Shown here piece after piece: positions 8,221 to 48,979 of a stretch of 64,000 bases of DNA. Each line of letters begins with the position of its first letter. Position 1 is the first letter of the stretch. Under the pieces are notes generated by a model. It was not told where the DNA came from and searched no databases. It worked only from the letters and a program-made list of their open reading frames with translations. The position numbers were made by a program, and so were the translations under genes. The stretch is from Candidatus Nanosyncoccus sp. (GTDB lineage Bacteria > Patescibacteriota > Saccharimonadia > Saccharimonadales > Saccharimonadaceae), in contig JAZQTT010000013.1 in assembly GCA_045630905.1 (NCBI GenBank), positions 2,192-66,191 of the forward strand, in the 5' to 3' direction.

Positions 8221-9365
8221 CGAAAAAAAAGAAAAAATTTGATTGGGATAAGATAAAAGGATTTTTACCTTATATTATTGCCGGTGTCTTAACCCTTAGC
8301 ATTGTATTTTTTGGGTCCCTTGATAAGCATAGCGGGGAAAATAACCTTAGCTTGGCGACTTTTGCAGATGAAAACTATGATATTTCGGTAGATCAGTTAT
8401 CTGAGCTTTATGTGGTAGCAGATCTTTCTGACGCGCTTGGCCTGGCTTCAGCCCCTGATGTAGCTTCTAATTTCGTTACGACTAATACTATGTACGATGC
8501 TGGACAAACTACAGCAGGGAAACTAGAAAAGCCTACATTCACTAATATCGATGCCTCTAGGGGAATTATTGAATATACAGTACAAGAAGGAGAAGATATT
8601 AATTCAATTGCGGCTAAATTTAAGGTTTCGGCAGATAATATTAGATGGTCTAATAATCTAAAAACTACAGATGTGAATGCCGGAACAATATTATACATTC
8701 CTAGTGTACCAGGGATCATTTATACAGTTAAGGATGGCGACTCTATTGAATCAATAGTATCAAAATATGGTTCTAATGAAGAAGAAATCATCGCCTTTAA
8801 TGACCTAGAAAACTCCAATATCTCAGCCGGGATGAGACTGATTATTAAAAATGGCTCTTTGCCAGAGAACGAACGTCCAGAATATGTGGCTCCGGCACGC
8901 AGATCTTCAAGATCTAGCAGCTCTACGAGGTCTACAAATTATACCTATACTTACCTCGGTAATTCATCAGCACGTCAGAATGTAACCGTAATTGCAACAG
9001 GATTCTATGATTCTAGATATGCATATCCAAATCCAAACCCGGGTGTTCCTGGTTGGTGTACTTGGTATGCTTGGTACTGGCGCGCGACAAGCCCATTGTC
9101 ATTAGGTGTACTGGGTCATGAAGGACGTAACGCTAATACTTGGCACCGTAACTATGCATACCGCGGCGTTGGTAGAACTCCACGTGTAGGTGCGGTCTTC
9201 CAGTCACCTTATGGTGGTGGTGGCTTTGGTCACGTTGGTGTAGTAGTTGGCATGAATGGCGATGGTTCTATTGTGGTTCAGGAAATGAACTACGCTGGTA
9301 GATATGTTGTAACACAAGCGACAATCCCAGCTGACCAGACAGGAAACTTTAATTACATTTATTAA
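8217..9365 (+). CDS. Membrane-anchored 2x LysM plus CHAP-domain peptidoglycan hydrolase
   Basis: LysM motifs YTVQEGEDINSIAAKF and YTVKDGDSIESIVSKY; CHAP GWCTWYA...GNA-like, GHVGVV, VQEMNY. Start taken at ATG overlapping the mltG stop (ATGA). Confidence 0.88.
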   Translation: MTKKKKKFDWDKIKGFLPYIIAGVLTLSIVFFGSLDKHSGENNLSLATFADENYDISVDQLSELYVVADLSDALGLASAPDVASNFVTTNTMYDAGQTTAGKLEKPTFTNIDASRGIIEYTVQEGEDINSIAAKFKVSADNIRWSNNLKTTDVNAGTILYIPSVPGIIYTVKDGDSIESIVSKYGSNEEEIIAFNDLENSNISAGMRLIIKNGSLPENERPEYVAPARRSSRSSSSTRSTNYTYTYLGNSSARQNVTVIATGFYDSRYAYPNPNPGVPGWCTWYAWYWRATSPLSLGVLGHEGRNANTWHRNYAYRGVGRTPRVGAVFQSPYGGGGFGHVGVVVGMNGDGSIVVQEMNYAGRYVVTQATIPADQTGNFNYIY

Positions 9366-10675
9366 TAATCTTCTACAAGAGTAAATTCTTTACCAGCGAT
9401 AGAGATAATTGAATCTGGCTGAGCGCCTTTTGAGGTAAGTTCAGCTCTAATGCCAAGTTTTTTCATTATATCTCTTAGGCGGTTTACTGAGGCATAATTA
9501 TTAAGGTCAGTACGGCGAGCAAACTTTTCAATTTTTTCACCGGTAACCAAGAAGGCTCCATCTTCCTGCTCTTCCACTTTCCAGGTATCTTTAAGCTGAT
9601 TAGGATTCAGGGAAATAGTAGGAATTGAATCCTGATCGACACTCGGTTCAGTTAATTCTTTGCCACTTTCCTGGGCCTTAGAAATACTCGTTGAATAAAC
9701 TTGTTTTAACTCCCTTAAAAGCTCTGTTAAGCCTTGGTGAGCCTGAGAAGAAATTGCAAAAATCTTAGCATCAGGGTTTTTAGCGAGAATTGAAGATATT
9801 TGCATATTGATAATTTCTTGGTCTACTCCTTCACATTTAGTGAGAGCGATAACCTCCGGGCGGTCTCTTAAATCTGAATACTTATCTAATTCATTTCTAA
9901 TGGTTTGATATGCTTCGCCGGCATCGTTATTATAGATATCAATAAGATGAAGTAAAACCGCTGTACGGTCAACATGGCGCAAAAAATCATGACCAAGGCC
10001 TTTGCCCTCGGAAGCGCCCTCGATAAGGCCTGGAATATCAGCAATTAAGAGATCTTGACCATCAATTGTAGCAACGCCAAGATTAGGAGTAATAGTAGTA
10101 AATGGGTAATCGGCAATTTCTGGCTTAGCGTTAGAAATTACAGAGAGAAAAGTAGATTTACCAGCATTAGGCAAACCAACAAGTCCAACATCGGCCATAG
10201 TTTTTAGCTCCAACTCAGCTTCAAATTCTTCGCCTGGTTCACCTACCTCAGCGATACGAGGAGTTTGACGAGTGGAACTCTTAAAATGGGCGTTTCCAAA
10301 CCCGCCGTCACCACCTTTAGCGATGATTGCTTCTTCACCGTCATGGGTTAGGTCTGCAATTTGTGTCCTCTCCCCGTTTTCTTTCTTATATACACAAGTC
10401 CCAACTGGAACATCAACGATTAAATCTTTCCCAGAACGGCCAGCCGAACGCTGTCCGGAACCGTTTTTACCATTGCCAGCTTCTAGAATTGGGGTAAAAC
10501 GAAAGTCAATTAAAGTGTTAGTGTTACGATCAGCTTTAAAGATAATATCGCCGCCTTTACCACCGTCGCCACCATCTGGTCCACCTTTTGGAATGTAGAT
10601 TTCATGCCGAAAAGAGACGGCTCCATCACCGCCTTTACCGGCCTTCAAACTCACTTTTGCGACGTCTACAAACAT
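9362..10675 (-). CDS. obgE: GTPase ObgE/CgtA
   Basis: MFVDVAKVSLKAGKGGDGAVSFR, Gly-rich Obg fold, GLPNAGKST, DIPGLIEGA, C-terminal OCT domain. Confidence 0.97.
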   Translation of the reverse strand: MFVDVAKVSLKAGKGGDGAVSFRHEIYIPKGGPDGGDGGKGGDIIFKADRNTNTLIDFRFTPILEAGNGKNGSGQRSAGRSGKDLIVDVPVGTCVYKKENGERTQIADLTHDGEEAIIAKGGDGGFGNAHFKSSTRQTPRIAEVGEPGEEFEAELELKTMADVGLVGLPNAGKSTFLSVISNAKPEIADYPFTTITPNLGVATIDGQDLLIADIPGLIEGASEGKGLGHDFLRHVDRTAVLLHLIDIYNNDAGEAYQTIRNELDKYSDLRDRPEVIALTKCEGVDQEIINMQISSILAKNPDAKIFAISSQAHQGLTELLRELKQVYSTSISKAQESGKELTEPSVDQDSIPTISLNPNQLKDTWKVEEQEDGAFLVTGEKIEKFARRTDLNNYASVNRLRDIMKKLGIRAELTSKGAQPDSIISIAGKEFTLVEDY

Positions 10676-44179: not shown

Positions 44180-44599
44180 ATGGATGGTGGAGTTGTAACT
44201 TTTATTATTGCAATTCTGATTGTAGCGGTACTAGTTTTTATTGCGATTCTTCTGACCGGAAAACGCGGATATCATTTTAATGTTGAATCATACCAAGCAA
44301 AGTTTTTAGCAATTGAAAACAAGTTAAAACAAGATAACCCAGCCACCTTTATGACTTCTATTATTGAAGGAGATAAGTTGCTTGATAAGGCGTTGGTAGA
44401 AATGGGAACACCTGGAAAAACAATGGGCGATAGATTAAAAAGAGCTGGAGGAAGATTTTCTAATCTAAACTCTGTTTGGCGAGCGCATAAATTGCGCAAT
44501 GCGATTGCCCATGAGTCTGATATTGAAATTAGTTATAAACAGGCATCTAATGCCCTAGCTATTTATAAGCAAGCACTAAAAGATTTAGGAGCAATTTAA
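44180..44599 (+). CDS. Conserved hypothetical membrane protein within the gat operon
   Basis: N-terminal TM; GDKLLDKAL...GKTMGDRLK...VWRAHKLRNAIAHE motif resembles a CPR-common family (recall). Confidence 0.75.
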   Translation: MDGGVVTFIIAILIVAVLVFIAILLTGKRGYHFNVESYQAKFLAIENKLKQDNPATFMTSIIEGDKLLDKALVEMGTPGKTMGDRLKRAGGRFSNLNSVWRAHKLRNAIAHESDIEISYKQASNALAIYKQALKDLGAI

Positions 44600-46014
44600 T
44601 GAAATATATTCCAACTATCGGTATCGAATGTCACGTTCAATTATGTACAAAAACTAAGCTGTTTTCTGAAGTAGACAATGATGCGCGTGGCAAGGAGCCA
44701 AACTCCTGCGTTTCACCGGTTGACTACGCTTTACCTGGTATGCTACCTAGATTAAATGGAGAAGCAATTCGCTTTGCGATTAGAGCTGGCAAGGCAATGA
44801 ATTGTGAAATTAATCGTTCTTCTAGATTTGATAGAAAACACTATTTCTATCCAGATTCACCAAAAGGTTATCAGATTACCCAGTTTTACCACCCAATCAT
44901 TGGTGAAGGTTACGTAGAATTACCATCCGGCACAAAAATCCGGATTGAGCACGCTCACCTTGAAGGAGATGCTGGAAAACTAACCCATTTTGATACATAT
45001 TCATTAGTTGATTTAAACCGGGTAGATACGCCTTTAATTGAAATTGTTTCAATGCCAGACATCCACTCAGCTAAGGACGCACACGATTATTGTAAAGAAC
45101 TTTGGCGACTTATGTGCTTTGCTGGTGTGACTTATGGCGATCTATACAATGGCAATATGAGATTTGACGTGAATATTTCAATTGCGCCAGAAGGTTCAGA
45201 TGAATTAGGCACGCGCGCAGAGGTAAAGAACTTAAACTCTTTCCGATCAGTTGAGCGAGCGGTTGAATACGAAATTTCAAGACAGGAGAAGCTATTAGAG
45301 TCTGGTGAGAAAGTGGTCCAGGAAACACGTGGTTGGAATGATGCAACGGGAAAAACCACTGGGCAGAGATCAAAGGAAGAAGCTAAAGACTACAGATATA
45401 TGCCAGAACCAGATATTCCGCCGATTAACTTATCCGAAGAGTTTATTGAAACTGAACTTAAGAAAATGCCACTAATGCCAGCGGATTATCGTAAAATGTT
45501 TAAAGATGTCATTAATTCAGATATTTTAGAGGTCTTACTGGACTACCCAACTTTAATGGGAAAAATCAATGAGGTGGATAAAAAATATGTGAAAAATATT
45601 TCTAACTTATTTACTTCAGTACTTTTAGCCGAAGAAAAATCAGCAGAGTACTTGAACGATCTACCAAGCGCCAATGATTTAGTGAAGTTAGCCGAGATGA
45701 ACGAGAAAAAGGAACTAAGCTCCACGGCCACAAAAGAAGTGTTCTTAAAGCTATTTGATCCACAAATGAAAGGCCGCGGCACGGAGAACATAGCTAAGGA
45801 ATTAGGCCTAATTCAGGAAAACGATTTAGATGCACTAGAAGAAATTGTAAATACCGTACTAGCTAAACCAGAAACCCAAAAAGCCCAAGAAGATTTTAAA
45901 AATGGGGAAGAAAAAGTAATAGGTTTCTTAGTAGGGCAAGTAATGAAAGAGTCTCACGGCAAGGCAAACCCTTCAGCGGTGCAAGAGATTTTGCGCTCTA
46001 AATTGACAAAGTAA
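44599..46014 (+). CDS. gatB: Asp/Glu-tRNA amidotransferase subunit B
   Basis: IGIECHVQL, FDRKHYFYPD, HLEGDAGK, GNMRFDVNIS, EVKNLNSFR, DYRYMPEPD, GFLVGQVMK. Confidence 0.98.
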   Translation: MKYIPTIGIECHVQLCTKTKLFSEVDNDARGKEPNSCVSPVDYALPGMLPRLNGEAIRFAIRAGKAMNCEINRSSRFDRKHYFYPDSPKGYQITQFYHPIIGEGYVELPSGTKIRIEHAHLEGDAGKLTHFDTYSLVDLNRVDTPLIEIVSMPDIHSAKDAHDYCKELWRLMCFAGVTYGDLYNGNMRFDVNISIAPEGSDELGTRAEVKNLNSFRSVERAVEYEISRQEKLLESGEKVVQETRGWNDATGKTTGQRSKEEAKDYRYMPEPDIPPINLSEEFIETELKKMPLMPADYRKMFKDVINSDILEVLLDYPTLMGKINEVDKKYVKNISNLFTSVLLAEEKSAEYLNDLPSANDLVKLAEMNEKKELSSTATKEVFLKLFDPQMKGRGTENIAKELGLIQENDLDALEEIVNTVLAKPETQKAQEDFKNGEEKVIGFLVGQVMKESHGKANPSAVQEILRSKLTK

Positions 46015-46031
46015 ATAGATTGTGGTACGAT
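46003..46031 (+). promoter_or_regulatory. Sigma70-type promoter overlapping the gatB 3' end
   Basis: TTGACA (46003-08), 17 bp, TGgTACGAT (-10 at 46026-31). Confidence 0.65.
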
Positions 46032-46136
46032 AACTTAACTCGCTCTCTGATTTTAACAGAGTGTTATGAGATGCACCTTATAAAATGAGAGAGTATTTTG
46101 TTGTTTTCTAGTTCAAAGGTTTAGGAGGTGGAAAAT

Positions 46137-46733
46137 ATGGTAAAGAAAGCAGCAACATTGAAGTCCTTAAGTGATCTTGGTCTCGACAATGTTACTAAGA
46201 CGTCTGTTATTAGCCGTTGTGGTAATGTCGACAAGGCAGTGAAGTACGGTAGACATCTGGCGTTTGTAATAGAAGAAAAGCCGCATCTTAAAAAGAGCAC
46301 GCCGAGAGCAAATCTAATCTTTATAAAGGCATTAAAAGAGGCGGGCTTTATACTGCCTTATGAAGATATCAAGATAGCGCTCGCTTTGGCCGAGTTTTAT
46401 AAGGATGTGTTTTATTTTGAAGTAAGCTTGAGCTTACCCAGCAATATCCGGGAGATGAGTAACGAAATTTATGAGGATTTCAAACCAGTTCCTAAAAAAG
46501 ACATATCAAGGTTGAAGAAACTTCTTAAAGAAGAGTTGTCCACTGAAGGATATTACGCAATTATTCATTCTTATGGGCTAAACGGAAAGACAATGTCTAA
46601 AAAAGAGCTGAAGAATGCACTTGGAATATCAGACTATCGTCTAAGGAAACTAATTAATGATTCATTAGATAGTCTGCACAAGCAAGAGGTCATAAAATGG
46701 ATTTTCGATTCCATTGAGAGACACACAAAATAA
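46137..46733 (+). CDS. Hypothetical protein with C-terminal sigma70 region-4-like HTH and a possible RNAP alpha-CTD-like N-terminus
   Basis: AGGAGG SD; LSTEGYYAIIHSYGLNGKTMSKKELKNALGISDYRLRKLINDSLDSL parallels sigma r4 (L..RE..VI..RYGL....T..E....GIS..RVRQI...AL); no sigma region 2. Confidence 0.6.
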   Translation: MVKKAATLKSLSDLGLDNVTKTSVISRCGNVDKAVKYGRHLAFVIEEKPHLKKSTPRANLIFIKALKEAGFILPYEDIKIALALAEFYKDVFYFEVSLSLPSNIREMSNEIYEDFKPVPKKDISRLKKLLKEELSTEGYYAIIHSYGLNGKTMSKKELKNALGISDYRLRKLINDSLDSLHKQEVIKWIFDSIERHTK

Positions 46734-46736
46734 TCT

Positions 46737-46766
46737 AAAAACCTCGGCTAAATAGTCGAGGTTTTT
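46737..46766 (+). terminator. Intrinsic terminator
   Basis: AAAAACCTCGGCTA-aa-TAGTCGAGGTTTTT. Confidence 0.85.
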
Positions 46767-46879
46767 TATCTATAGATTTTTCTTTTCATTTTAGGAAAAA
46801 TGTGATAAAATATTGGCAATGTTATCTTTTTGAGCGTAGTACTCATGAGATAGAAAATAATAAATGGTAAAAGGAGAAT

Positions 46880-48979
46880 ATGGCTACTGAAATCAAAGAT
46901 CTAGCTAAGATGCGCAATATTGGAATTATCGCGCATATTGACGCTGGTAAAACTACCACCTCGGAAGCGATTTTGTATCGTACGGGGCTAAAACATAAAA
47001 TTGACCTTGTTAAGGGCGGCACAGGTGGTGCTGATACCGACTGGATGGAACAGGAAAAGGAACGCGGTATTACGATTACTTCTGCCGCGGTAACTGTTTA
47101 CTGGAAAAATCATCAAATTAACATTATTGATACCCCAGGGCATATCGACTTCACCGCCGAGGTGGAACGCTCTCTCCGTGTACTTGACGGTGCGGTAGTG
47201 GTATTTGACGGTAAAATGGGTGTAGAAGCTCAGTCTGAAACTGTATGGCGCCAAGCTACTAAATACGGCGTACCTCGCATCTGTTTTGTTAACAAAATCA
47301 ACCAGATTGGTGGAGATTTCTACAAATCTCTGGATTCAATTCACAAACGTTTGTCTAAAAACGCAGTAGCTATTCACTTACCAATTGGCTTCGAGAAAGA
47401 TATCTGTGGTGTAGTAGATCTAGTTGATATGAAGGCTTACACCTATAAAGATTACGCTGACCATGAGCTTACTGTTGGCGAAATTCCAGCAGATATGGTA
47501 GAAAAGGCTAAGAATGCTCGTTCAATGTTGGTTGAAGAAGCTGTCCAAGCCGATGAAGCTTTAATGGATAAGTATTTTAACGAAGGTGAAGAAGCTATCA
47601 CTATTGATGAACTTAAAGCTGCACTTCGTAAGCGCGTACTTGATGGTGATTTCTTCCTAGTAACCGGTGGTGACGGACGCGGTGTAATTGTAGAGAAGGT
47701 ACTTGATCTTATGACAGATTATCTTCCTTCACCACTTGATCGCGATCAGGGACAAACAGTAGGCACCGATCCAAAGACCGGCGATCAGATTATTCGCAAA
47801 GCTGATAACTCTGAACCGCTTACTGCTCTTGCCTTTAAGATCGCAACCGATCCATTTGTGGGTAAATTAATCTTCATCCGCGTTTACGCTGGTAAATTGA
47901 AGTCTGGTGACACGGTACTTAACGCATCAACTGGCGACAAGGAAAGAATCGGACGTTTGGTACGTATGCACGCAAATGACCGAAAAGATATTACCGAGAT
48001 TGGTGCTGGCGATATCGCTGCGGTAGTAGGATTAAAGAACTGTACCACTGGTACAACTCTCTGTTCTCCTGCACATCCAATTCTTCTAGAGTCAATTGAA
48101 TTCCCAGATCCACCAGTATCAATTGCAGTTGAACCAAAAACTAAAGCTGATCAGGAAAAAATGGGTATTGGTCTATCTAAGATGGCTGAGGAAGACCCAA
48201 CTTTCCGTGTTCACACTGATGAAGAAACCGGTCAGACTATTATCTCTGGTATGGGTGAGCTTCACCTTGAAATTATTATTGATCGTTTAAAGAGGGAACA
48301 TAACGTAGAAGCCAACACTGGCGCTCCACAAGTAGCTTACCGTGAGACAATCCGCGGTACCGCAGAAGCACAAGGTAAGCACATCAAGCAGTCTGGTGGT
48401 CGTGGTCAGTATGGTGACGTATGGATCAAGTTTGAACCAAACGAACCAGGGAAAGGCTTTGAGTTTATCGACCAGATTAAAGGTGGTGTGGTTCCTCAGG
48501 AATACCGCAAACCAGTACAAAAAGGTGTCGAAGATACCTTGGCCGGCGGTGTTATTGCTGGATATCCAGTAGTAGATATCAAGGCTACTTTGTATGATGG
48601 TTCTTACCATGATGTTGACTCCTCAGAGCTCGCCTTCACTTTGGCAGGTTCTCTTGCGACCCGAGAAGGTATCTCGAAGGCTAGCCCAGTACTCCTAGAA
48701 CCAGTAATGAAACTTGAAATTACCACCCCAGAAGAGTTCATGGGTGATGTAATCGGAGATATCAACTCTCGTCGTGGGCGCATTGATGAGATGGAAGATT
48801 TGAACGGTGGCGCCAAGCTAATCAAGGCGTTTTGTCCTTTGGCTAACTTGTTTGGTTACACCAGCGATCTTAGAGGTATGACTCAAGGGCGTGCTGCTTC
48901 TTCTATGGAACTCTTTGCCTACGAGGAAGTACCACCTAACGTAGCTGCTGAGATTATTGAGAAGAGAAATTCAAAATAA
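46880..48979 (+). CDS. fusA: Elongation factor G
   Basis: [66 protein letters not shown]. Confidence 0.99.

What the first reader, a model, noticed from the sequence alone, without database searches (positions are those of the whole stretch)
46003..46766. Orphan protein with a sigma-region-4-like HTH but no region 2, and a structured leader
Seen: a self-contained unit between gatB and fusA. The C-terminus aligns by eye with sigma70 region 4. The N-terminus (KSLSDLGLDNVTKTSVISRCGNVDKAV) weakly resembles the RNAP alpha-CTD HhH (SIEELxLSVRxxNxLxRxGIxTV). The ~100-nt leader has nested stems (CTCTG/CAGAG, TATGAG/CTTATA) and a U-rich tract before the SD. Inference: a mimic of the two promoter-contacting modules (-35 and UP element) acting as a transcription modulator or anti-activator.
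Basis: inference. Interest (0 to 1): 0.55.

Follow-up and report, generated by a model that had tools for sequence, protein, structure and literature searches.

The report
Stand-alone alpha-CTD-like plus sigma-4 protein
This small gene of an ultra-small Saccharibacteria bacterium encodes a protein built from look-alikes of the two RNA polymerase parts that read the upstream half of promoters; it is a very diverged, shortened member of an unstudied, fast-evolving accessory family found so far only in its own genus, and it probably binds DNA as a regulator rather than acting as a sigma factor.

Summary
Window 46137-46733 (+) is a 198-aa gene with its own promoter-like site, folded leader, strong ribosome-binding site and terminator, sitting in a gatB-fusA gap that varies between species.

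It is not a true orphan. An exhaustive search found 60 related clusters, all unnamed and from Saccharibacteria. An N-domain profile hit 53 of 251 genomes of the same genus and 0 of 200 from other genera of the order.

Most relatives are about 320 aa: N-domain, sigma-70 region 4, then a genuine RNA polymerase alpha-CTD. The window protein is a short form without that last domain, and one of the most diverged members.

Several canonical DNA-contact residues are replaced, yet both modules are strongly basic.

The most likely function is a free-standing DNA-binding transcription modulator; this is inferred, not shown. The leader's main hairpin with its U tract may simply be the gatB terminator.

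This scan has already met sigma-4/alpha-CTD fusions on other DNA.

The parts
46003..46031 (+). Promoter-like site: TTGACA, 17-nt spacer, TACGAT with an upstream TG (extended -10). The -35 overlaps the last gatB codons.
   Evidence: 10 of 12 matches, TG; sites of this quality number 35 in the window against 20.8 in shuffles, so it is plausible but not proven.
46042..46094 (+). Long imperfect hairpin, followed by a U-rich tract to about 46110. Likely the gatB terminator and/or an attenuator at the 5' end of the gene's own mRNA.
   Evidence: -20.7 kcal/mol, z -3.46, 0 of 200 shuffles. Relatives have terminator hairpins right after gatB. No Rfam family matches it.
46102..46137 (+). Weaker hairpin that pairs the U-rich tract with the SD-to-AUG spacer. 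It could limit translation.
   Evidence: -9.5 kcal/mol, z -3.41. No relatives share the leader, so covariation could not be tested.
46123..46128 (+). Shine-Dalgarno AGGAGG, 8 nt before the ATG.
   Evidence: Sequence.
46137..46361 (+). Residues 1-75: alpha-CTD-like helix-hairpin-helix domain, net charge +8. The R265 equivalent is Val19.
   Evidence: hhalign; model helices; residues and charge.
46362..46487 (+). Residues 76-117: helical connector, net charge -5. It carries Y88, Y112 and E113 (the SNExYExF motif); with R39 of the N-domain these are the family's most conserved residues.
   Evidence: Alignment A1, (R39 and Y112 invariant; Y88 and E113 at 90% or more).
46488..46733 (+). Residues 118-198 plus the stop codon: sigma-70 region 4 (4.1, 4.2 and C-terminal tail), primary-sigma type, diverged. 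Net charge +6.
46737..46766 (+). Intrinsic terminator: 13-bp stem, 4-nt loop, U run.
   Evidence: -16.8 kcal/mol, z -7.65. The pattern scan did not list it.

Best explanation
The gene encodes a short, highly diverged member of an uncharacterised accessory protein family of one Saccharibacteria genus. The architecture is an alpha-CTD-like HhH domain, an acidic helical connector with the family's invariant residues, and a region-4 domain derived from a primary sigma factor. Most relatives add a genuine alpha-CTD at the C-terminus; this copy lacks it. With no region 2 it cannot open promoters or act as a sigma factor.

The most likely role is a free-standing nucleic-acid-binding transcription modulator. 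It would use the basic sigma-4 helix-turn-helix and the basic HhH domain to sit on promoter-upstream DNA and either occlude or recruit RNA polymerase. The recognised sequence has probably drifted from the canonical -35/UP elements.

The gene is an independently expressed cassette (own promoter-like site, SD and terminator) inserted in a variable gap between gatB and fusA. Its expression may be damped by a terminator-like hairpin and an SD-covering hairpin in the leader.

Shown: the anatomy, the family, the distribution and the fold. Inferred: DNA binding, the regulatory role and the function of the leader.
For: - Family: 60 clusters at E < 1e-3.
- Domains: 32 of 52 members hit Pfam Sigma70_r4 and 30 of 52 hit RNA_pol_A_CTD. 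The profile matches PDB sigma region 4 at E 5e-17 and RpoA alpha-CTD at E 1e-16.
- N-domain: alpha-CTD-like by hhalign.
- No region 2: Pfam finds none in any member.
- Charge: both modules are basic (+8 and +6, pI 9.4), at the top of the family range.
- About half the family keeps the primary-sigma -35 reading residues, so DNA reading is plausibly ancestral.
- Accessory status: 53 of 251 genus genomes and 0 of 200 in other genera. There is no conserved neighbour. The gene is absent from the gatB-fusA gap of all 7 relatives where that gap could be read, and the gap varies from about 120 to 730 nt.
- Precedent: stand-alone Sigma70_r4-only proteins that activate promoters exist, the LtrA family of phage late activators (PMC3753634).
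Against: - No experiment or binding-site evidence exists.
- This copy lacks the alpha-CTD R265 equivalent and five of the canonical sigma-4 DNA or activator contact residues.
- Its sigma-4 does not reach any Pfam threshold.
- It has one of the longest branches in the family tree (1.95 against a median of 0.85), which could mean relaxed selection.
- The family's invariant residues lie in the N-domain and connector, not in the DNA-reading helices. The conserved function may therefore be a protein contact.
- The N-domain fold was not searched on its own.
Confidence: 0.5

Rival explanations
1. RNA-polymerase-binding decoy. The sigma-4 module docks on the beta-flap tip helix, or another partner of sigma A region 4, and the HhH module contacts RNAP or a regulator. 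The protein would retune or hijack the polymerase by protein-protein mimicry rather than by binding DNA.
For: The region-4 fold is of the primary-sigma type and includes 4.1 and the C-terminal tail. Canonical DNA-contact residues are replaced in this copy. The family's invariant residues lie outside the DNA-reading helices. Fast evolution and patchy distribution suit a conflict-type factor.
Against: The flap-binding surface was not examined and no complex was modelled. Both modules are strongly basic, which suits nucleic acid better than the acidic or hydrophobic flap. The high pTM of 0.87 suggests sigma-4 is packed against the rest of the protein and may not be free to dock.
Confidence: 0.2
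2. Regulator belonging to a mobile or phage-derived island. The family would control genes of an integrated element, like phage late activators, and the window copy is a stray cassette left after transfer.
For: About 14 genus genomes carry 3-4 tandem paralogues plus a separate alpha-CTD-only gene inside islands of unannotatable genes. Locations are not syntenic. Weak structural matches fall on small phage proteins labelled sigma70_r4 or RNAP alpha. LtrA-type sigma-4-only activators are phage-borne (PMC3753634).
Against: No integrase, capsid or terminase was seen in the one island scanned with Pfam. There was no hit in 50,697 phage genomes with this protein, and no pattern match in viral contigs with a long member. 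PHROGs gave nothing significant. The window copy sits between housekeeping genes with no repeats or mobility genes noted.
Confidence: 0.15
3. Decaying or neutral remnant: an intact but functionally eroding copy of the family that has lost its alpha-CTD and its DNA-reading residues.
For: It is among the most diverged family members. It lacks the C-terminal alpha-CTD and has no partner alpha-CTD gene in the genome other than RpoA. Contact residues are lost. It is a singleton cluster seen on one contig.
Against: The frame is intact, with a strong SD, a near-consensus promoter-like site and a strong terminator. The sequence threads the family fold at pLDDT 95.5. The family invariants R39, Y88, Y112 and E113 are all kept. 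In a 0.71-Mb streamlined genome, useless genes are usually purged (general knowledge). Short forms recur throughout the family (20 of 52).
Confidence: 0.15

Closest known systems
Region 4 (4.1, 4.2 and C-terminal tail) of primary group-1 sigma factors (RpoD/SigA; Pfam PF04545; e.g. PDB 4xln_F, 1ku7, 1rio_H, 4g6d_A)
   Different: It stands alone, with no regions 1.2-3. In this copy the R584, E585, K593, R596 and K597 equivalents are D, Y, D, D and S. It scores below every Pfam threshold as a single sequence.
C-terminal domain of the RNA polymerase alpha subunit (RpoA alpha-CTD; Pfam PF03118; e.g. PDB 1doq_A, 3gfk_B)
   Same: Long family members end in a bona fide alpha-CTD (best Pfam E 4e-23). 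The N-domain of all members, including this one, aligns to alpha-CTD profiles (83-88% probability) and shares the L-x-L-S-x-R-T-type first HhH in the family consensus.
   Different: It is not attached to an alpha N-terminal domain. The window protein has only the cryptic N-terminal copy, with an insertion between the two HhH halves and Val in place of R265. HMM-to-sequence similarity to solved alpha-CTDs is not significant (E 0.28).
Unnamed stand-alone sigma-4/alpha-CTD fusion proteins of CPR bacteria, Clostridia and phages
   Same: The same two modules and no region 2; accessory, fast-evolving and unstudied.
   Different: Here the order is alpha-CTD-like, connector, sigma-4 (then alpha-CTD in long forms). 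A family-specific connector motif is present, the range is a single genus, and no phage copy was found. Kinship with the other fusion families was not tested.
LtrA family (Sigma70_r4-only) late transcriptional activators of Gram-positive phages (Quiles-Puchalt et al. 2013, PMC3753634)
   Same: Small free-standing proteins whose only recognisable part is sigma region 4, and which act on promoters without being sigma factors.
   Different: LtrA proteins are phage-encoded and have no alpha-CTD-like domain. No sequence link was found here: PHROGs gave nothing significant.

Membership tests
Sigma-70 family sigma factor | Region 2 (core binding and -10 recognition, PF04542) | tested here: not met
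   No PF04542 hit in this protein or in any of 52 family members. Structural matches to sigma factors are confined to residues 118-195. The N-terminus is alpha-CTD-like instead.
Sigma-70 family sigma factor | Region 4 helix-turn-helix fold | tested here: met
Pfam Sigma70_r4 (PF04545) | Score above the gathering threshold | tested here: not met
   The window protein has no hit even at E 10 and is not found by PF04545 in the genome scan. 32 of 52 relatives do hit, so homology is by transitivity and fold.
RNA polymerase alpha-CTD (PF03118) | Sequence-profile match over the double HhH domain | tested here: inconclusive
   No Pfam hit. hhalign gives 87.5% over 73 columns against the family's own alpha-CTD, and 83-88% over 33 columns against real RpoA alpha-CTDs. 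PDB 1doq_A scores E 0.28.
RNA polymerase alpha-CTD (PF03118) | DNA-binding '265 determinant' (R265, N268 equivalents) | tested here: not met
   Val19 and Thr22 occupy the aligned positions. Family-wide, R is present in 22 of 52 members. The E. coli numbering comes from general knowledge.
Stand-alone sigma-4 plus alpha-CTD fusion class (unnamed) | Sigma-4 and a Pfam-recognisable alpha-CTD in one polypeptide | tested here: not met
   Met by 30 of 52 relatives. The window protein ends 3 residues after the sigma-4 tail helix. The remaining 146 nt before fusA hold the terminator and the fusA promoter-like site, leaving no room for a remnant. It is a short form of the family.
Saccharibacteria N-domain/connector family (this report, alignments A1 and A2) | N-domain profile match plus invariant R39, Y88, Y112 and E113 | tested here: met
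   phmmer E 7.6e-18 to the nearest cluster. N-domain profile E 3.5e-27. All four residues are present.
Phage late activators (LtrA, RinA, ArpU, LtrC) | Profile match to the corresponding Pfam or PHROG families | tested here: not met
   No such family among Pfam hits of the 52 members. The best PHROG hit has E 0.0018 and unknown function.
Anti-phage defence proteins (PADLOC) | Full-length match to a defence protein model | tested here: not met
   The window protein has no hit. Long relatives match only the sigma-4-like C-terminal stretch of MzaA.

The most novel reading that the evidence does not exclude
The family is a portable 'upstream promoter reader'. One polypeptide reproduces the side-by-side alpha-CTD/sigma-4 arrangement that the holoenzyme forms on UP/-35 DNA. 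Its hidden N-terminal alpha-CTD copy makes the long forms alpha-CTD / sigma-4 / alpha-CTD sandwiches. Saccharibacteria, which have very few conventional transcription factors, would diversify it rapidly to compete with or redirect their own RNA polymerase at chosen promoters, possibly in conflicts with phages or mobile islands.
Probability: 0.25. Interest if true: 0.7.

Novelty: new variant of a known kind. Interest (0 to 1): 0.45.

Why it matters
Saccharibacteria and other ultra-small bacteria carry few recognisable transcription regulators, so how they control genes is largely unknown. A genus-wide, rapidly diversifying family made only of copies of RNA polymerase's own promoter-reading modules would be a new regulatory design: polymerase mimicry by domain duplication.

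It offers a concrete handle for experiments, because the proteins are small, soluble-looking and predicted with high confidence. This copy adds two points to what the scan had already seen elsewhere. There is a cryptic second alpha-CTD-like domain at the N-terminus. And short forms that have lost the canonical DNA contacts are still kept as complete expression cassettes.

Tried and rejected
- **Word-based homologue search:** with the single protein it found only itself. With the family alignment it mostly pulled in ordinary primary sigma factors.
- **Single-sequence AlphaFold:** useless, pLDDT 39.
- **Profile libraries:** Pfam, NCBIfam, PHROGs and PADLOC gave nothing significant for the protein itself. 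A PDB phmmer search with it gave only chance hits.
- **ESM Atlas:** the N-terminal part gave only sub-threshold, unrelated clusters.
- **The search for related loci:** It found nothing in genome contigs with the protein or in viral contigs with a long member. tblastn against phage genomes gave no match.
- **Rfam on the leader:** no match near threshold. The listed weak hits are terminator look-alikes at 46650-46830.
- **'True sigma factor':** rejected, because there is no region 2.
- **'Paralogue family within this genome':** rejected. There is one copy, two ordinary sigma-4-containing genes elsewhere and one RpoA alpha-CTD.
- **Conserved operon partner:** none found across 20 loci.
- **Family tree:** the careful search did not finish. 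The quick tree is poorly resolved (34 of 49 inner branches open) and shows only that short and long forms are interspersed.
- **Literature:** no paper on such fusions was found.

Full report
**Anatomy**

The flagged stretch is a complete expression unit on the plus strand.
- gatB ends at 46014 and fusA starts at 46880. Both were named from their translations and general knowledge.
- The unit holds a promoter-like site (TTGACA at 46003, 17-nt spacer, TG-n-TACGAT ending at 46031).
- A leader of about 100 nt follows, then AGGAGG at 46123-46128.
- The ATG is at 46137, opening a 198-codon frame that ends at 46733.
- A strong hairpin with a U run lies at 46737-46766 (-16.8 kcal/mol, z -7.65).
- Promoter-like sites of this quality are only modestly enriched in the window (35 against 20.8 in shuffles), so the promoter is plausible rather than proven.

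**Leader**

The leader folds better than all 200 shuffles (-30.2 kcal/mol, z -3.85). It splits into two elements.
- A long imperfect hairpin at 46042-46094 (-20.7 kcal/mol), followed by a U-rich tract.
- A weaker hairpin at 46102-46137 (-9.5 kcal/mol) that pairs that tract with the SD-to-AUG spacer.

No Rfam family matches. In related species gatB is followed at the same place by a simple hairpin with a U tract. The first element is therefore most simply the gatB terminator. If the promoter is real, it would also sit at the 5' end of this gene's own mRNA and could attenuate it. No relative shares the leader, so covariation cannot be tested. Any regulatory role is inference.

**Not an orphan**

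The single protein matches nothing significant in Pfam, NCBIfam, PHROGs or PADLOC. The word-based search finds only itself, and there is no paralogue in its 0.71-Mb genome.

The exhaustive phmmer search of 1.8 billion representatives tells a different story. It returns 60 clusters at E < 1e-3 and 12 below 1e-10, at 25-36% identity. The named ones are 'hypothetical protein [Candidatus Saccharibacteria bacterium]'.

**Family architecture**

- Of 52 aligned members (A1), 32 hit Pfam Sigma70_r4 (best E 9e-19) and 30 hit RNA_pol_A_CTD (best E 4e-23).
- The family profile matches solved primary-sigma region 4 at positions 126-190 (E 5e-17; 4g6d_A, 1tty_A). It matches RpoA alpha-CTD at positions 239-308 (E 1e-16; 8i23_A, 3gfk_B).
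- The common long form of about 320 aa is: N-domain, connector, sigma-4, linker, alpha-CTD.
- The window protein is a short form that stops just after the sigma-4 tail.
- By my length-based split, 20 of 52 members are short. Short and long forms are interspersed on a poorly resolved quick tree.
- In some genomes the alpha-CTD is a separate neighbouring gene.

**Structure**

With the family alignment, AlphaFold gives pLDDT 95.5 and pTM 0.87; without it, pLDDT is 39.
- Foldseek lists only sigma factors; isolated region 4 (1rio_H) has a target TM-score of 0.84.
- No structural match covered residues 1-117.

**N-domain**

Profile-profile comparison gives these results.
- N-domain against the family's own Pfam-positive alpha-CTD: 87.5% probability, E 4e-7, 73 columns spanning the whole domain.
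- N-domain against an alignment of 28 genuine Saccharibacteria RpoA alpha-CTDs: 83-88%, E 3e-6 to 9e-6, over the first HhH of 33 columns.
- Controls: sigma-4 against alpha-CTD, and N-domain against sigma-4, give 0.2-1.2%. The family alpha-CTD against RpoA gives 98.9%.
- An HMM-to-sequence search lists T. thermophilus alpha-CTD (1doq_A) over the full domain, but at a non-significant E of 0.28.

I read the N-domain as a diverged alpha-CTD copy with an insertion between its two halves. The support is moderate.

**State of this copy**

- Using E. coli numbering from general knowledge, the alpha-CTD R265 and N268 equivalents are V19 and T22.
- In sigma-4, the R586 and R588 equivalents are kept. R584, E585, K593, R596 and K597 are D, Y, D, D and S.
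- Roughly half of the family keeps the canonical primary-sigma residues.
- The residues that are invariant or nearly so across the family are R39, Y88, Y112 and E113. They lie in the N-domain and connector, and this copy keeps all four.
- The protein has one of the longest branches in the tree (1.95 against a median of 0.85).
- Yet it is among the most basic members: pI 9.4, N-domain +8, sigma-4 +6, connector -5.

**Distribution and context**

- An N-domain-only profile (A2) avoids cross-hits to ordinary sigma factors and RpoA. It finds the family in 53 of 251 species genomes of the window's genus (40 of 168 high-quality ones), at 1-4 copies.
- The same profile finds it in 0 of 200 genomes from 151 other genera of the same order.
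- About 14 genomes carry 3-4 tandem paralogues. In the islands examined (G068, G108, G123) these sit with a separate alpha-CTD-only gene, in a stretch otherwise unannotatable by Pfam and next to a dinB-like gene.
- No neighbouring gene family is shared across 20 loci.
- In the 7 relatives where both genes lie in the fetched locus, the gatB-fusA gap is about 120 to 730 nt. It is empty or holds unrelated cargo, and this gene is absent there.
- The nearest short relative examined (G069) sits in a different context.
- No phage copy was found. Structural matches to small phage proteins labelled sigma70_r4 or RNAP alpha are weak.

**Interpretation**

What is shown: a stand-alone alpha-CTD-like plus sigma-4 protein, without region 2. 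It belongs to a genus-restricted, fast-evolving accessory family and is carried as an autonomous cassette in a variable intergenic slot.

What is inferred: it binds nucleic acid and modulates transcription. Stand-alone sigma-4-only activators exist in phages (the LtrA family, PMC3753634), so the design has precedent.

For this copy, the loss of canonical contacts argues against literal -35/UP reading. Its strong positive charge, intact frame, expression signals and conserved family core argue against simple decay.

The rivals are an RNAP-docking decoy, an island or phage regulator, and a decaying remnant. Available data exclude none of them.

**Relation to earlier notes**

This scan has met sigma-4/alpha-CTD fusions on other DNA several times. 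I used those notes as leads only. Kinship between those families and this one was not tested.

Noticed in passing
L010 (G000:C17:49902-53036), minus strand, 346-aa frame: The genome's second Sigma70_r4 hit (E 4.9e-13) is not a normal sigma factor. Region 4 sits at the N-terminus, followed by about 270 residues that by eye resemble winged-helix or HARE-HTH modules, with no region 2.
   Followed up: no
L065 (G068:C5:4000-22000); also L066 and L067: A roughly 10-kb island with four paralogues of the family plus a separate 150-aa alpha-CTD-only gene. It is surrounded by ORFs with no Pfam match and ends at a dinB-like (IMS family) gene. Comparable 3-4-copy sets recur in about 14 genomes of the genus.
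   Followed up: partly
Window 46012-46880 and the matching gaps in L046-L055: The gatB-fusA gap is a variable slot. It is about 120-150 nt in two species. In others it holds a reverse-strand 156-aa ORF (G002), a GC-richer stretch with a small membrane-like ORF (G001), or a shared non-coding block containing TTCATTTACCATAGT with its own terminator (G006, G011).
   Followed up: partly
Window 46783-46879: The fusA upstream region is conserved across species. It has an extended -10 (TGTG-TA-AAT type), then a CTTTTTGAGTGTGGAAC-like block, an A/T-rich run and AAAGGAG. This may be a conserved fusA leader element.
   Followed up: no
Window 44180-44599: A 139-aa protein with one N-terminal membrane helix is wedged between gatA and gatB, with its stop overlapping the gatB start. 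It is conserved at that position throughout the genus loci examined.
   Followed up: no
L018 (G084:C8:7260-10859): One relative appears split. The N-domain/sigma-4 part and the alpha-CTD part lie in overlapping adjacent frames (8760-9359 and 9354-9554), which suggests a frameshift or two genes.
   Followed up: no
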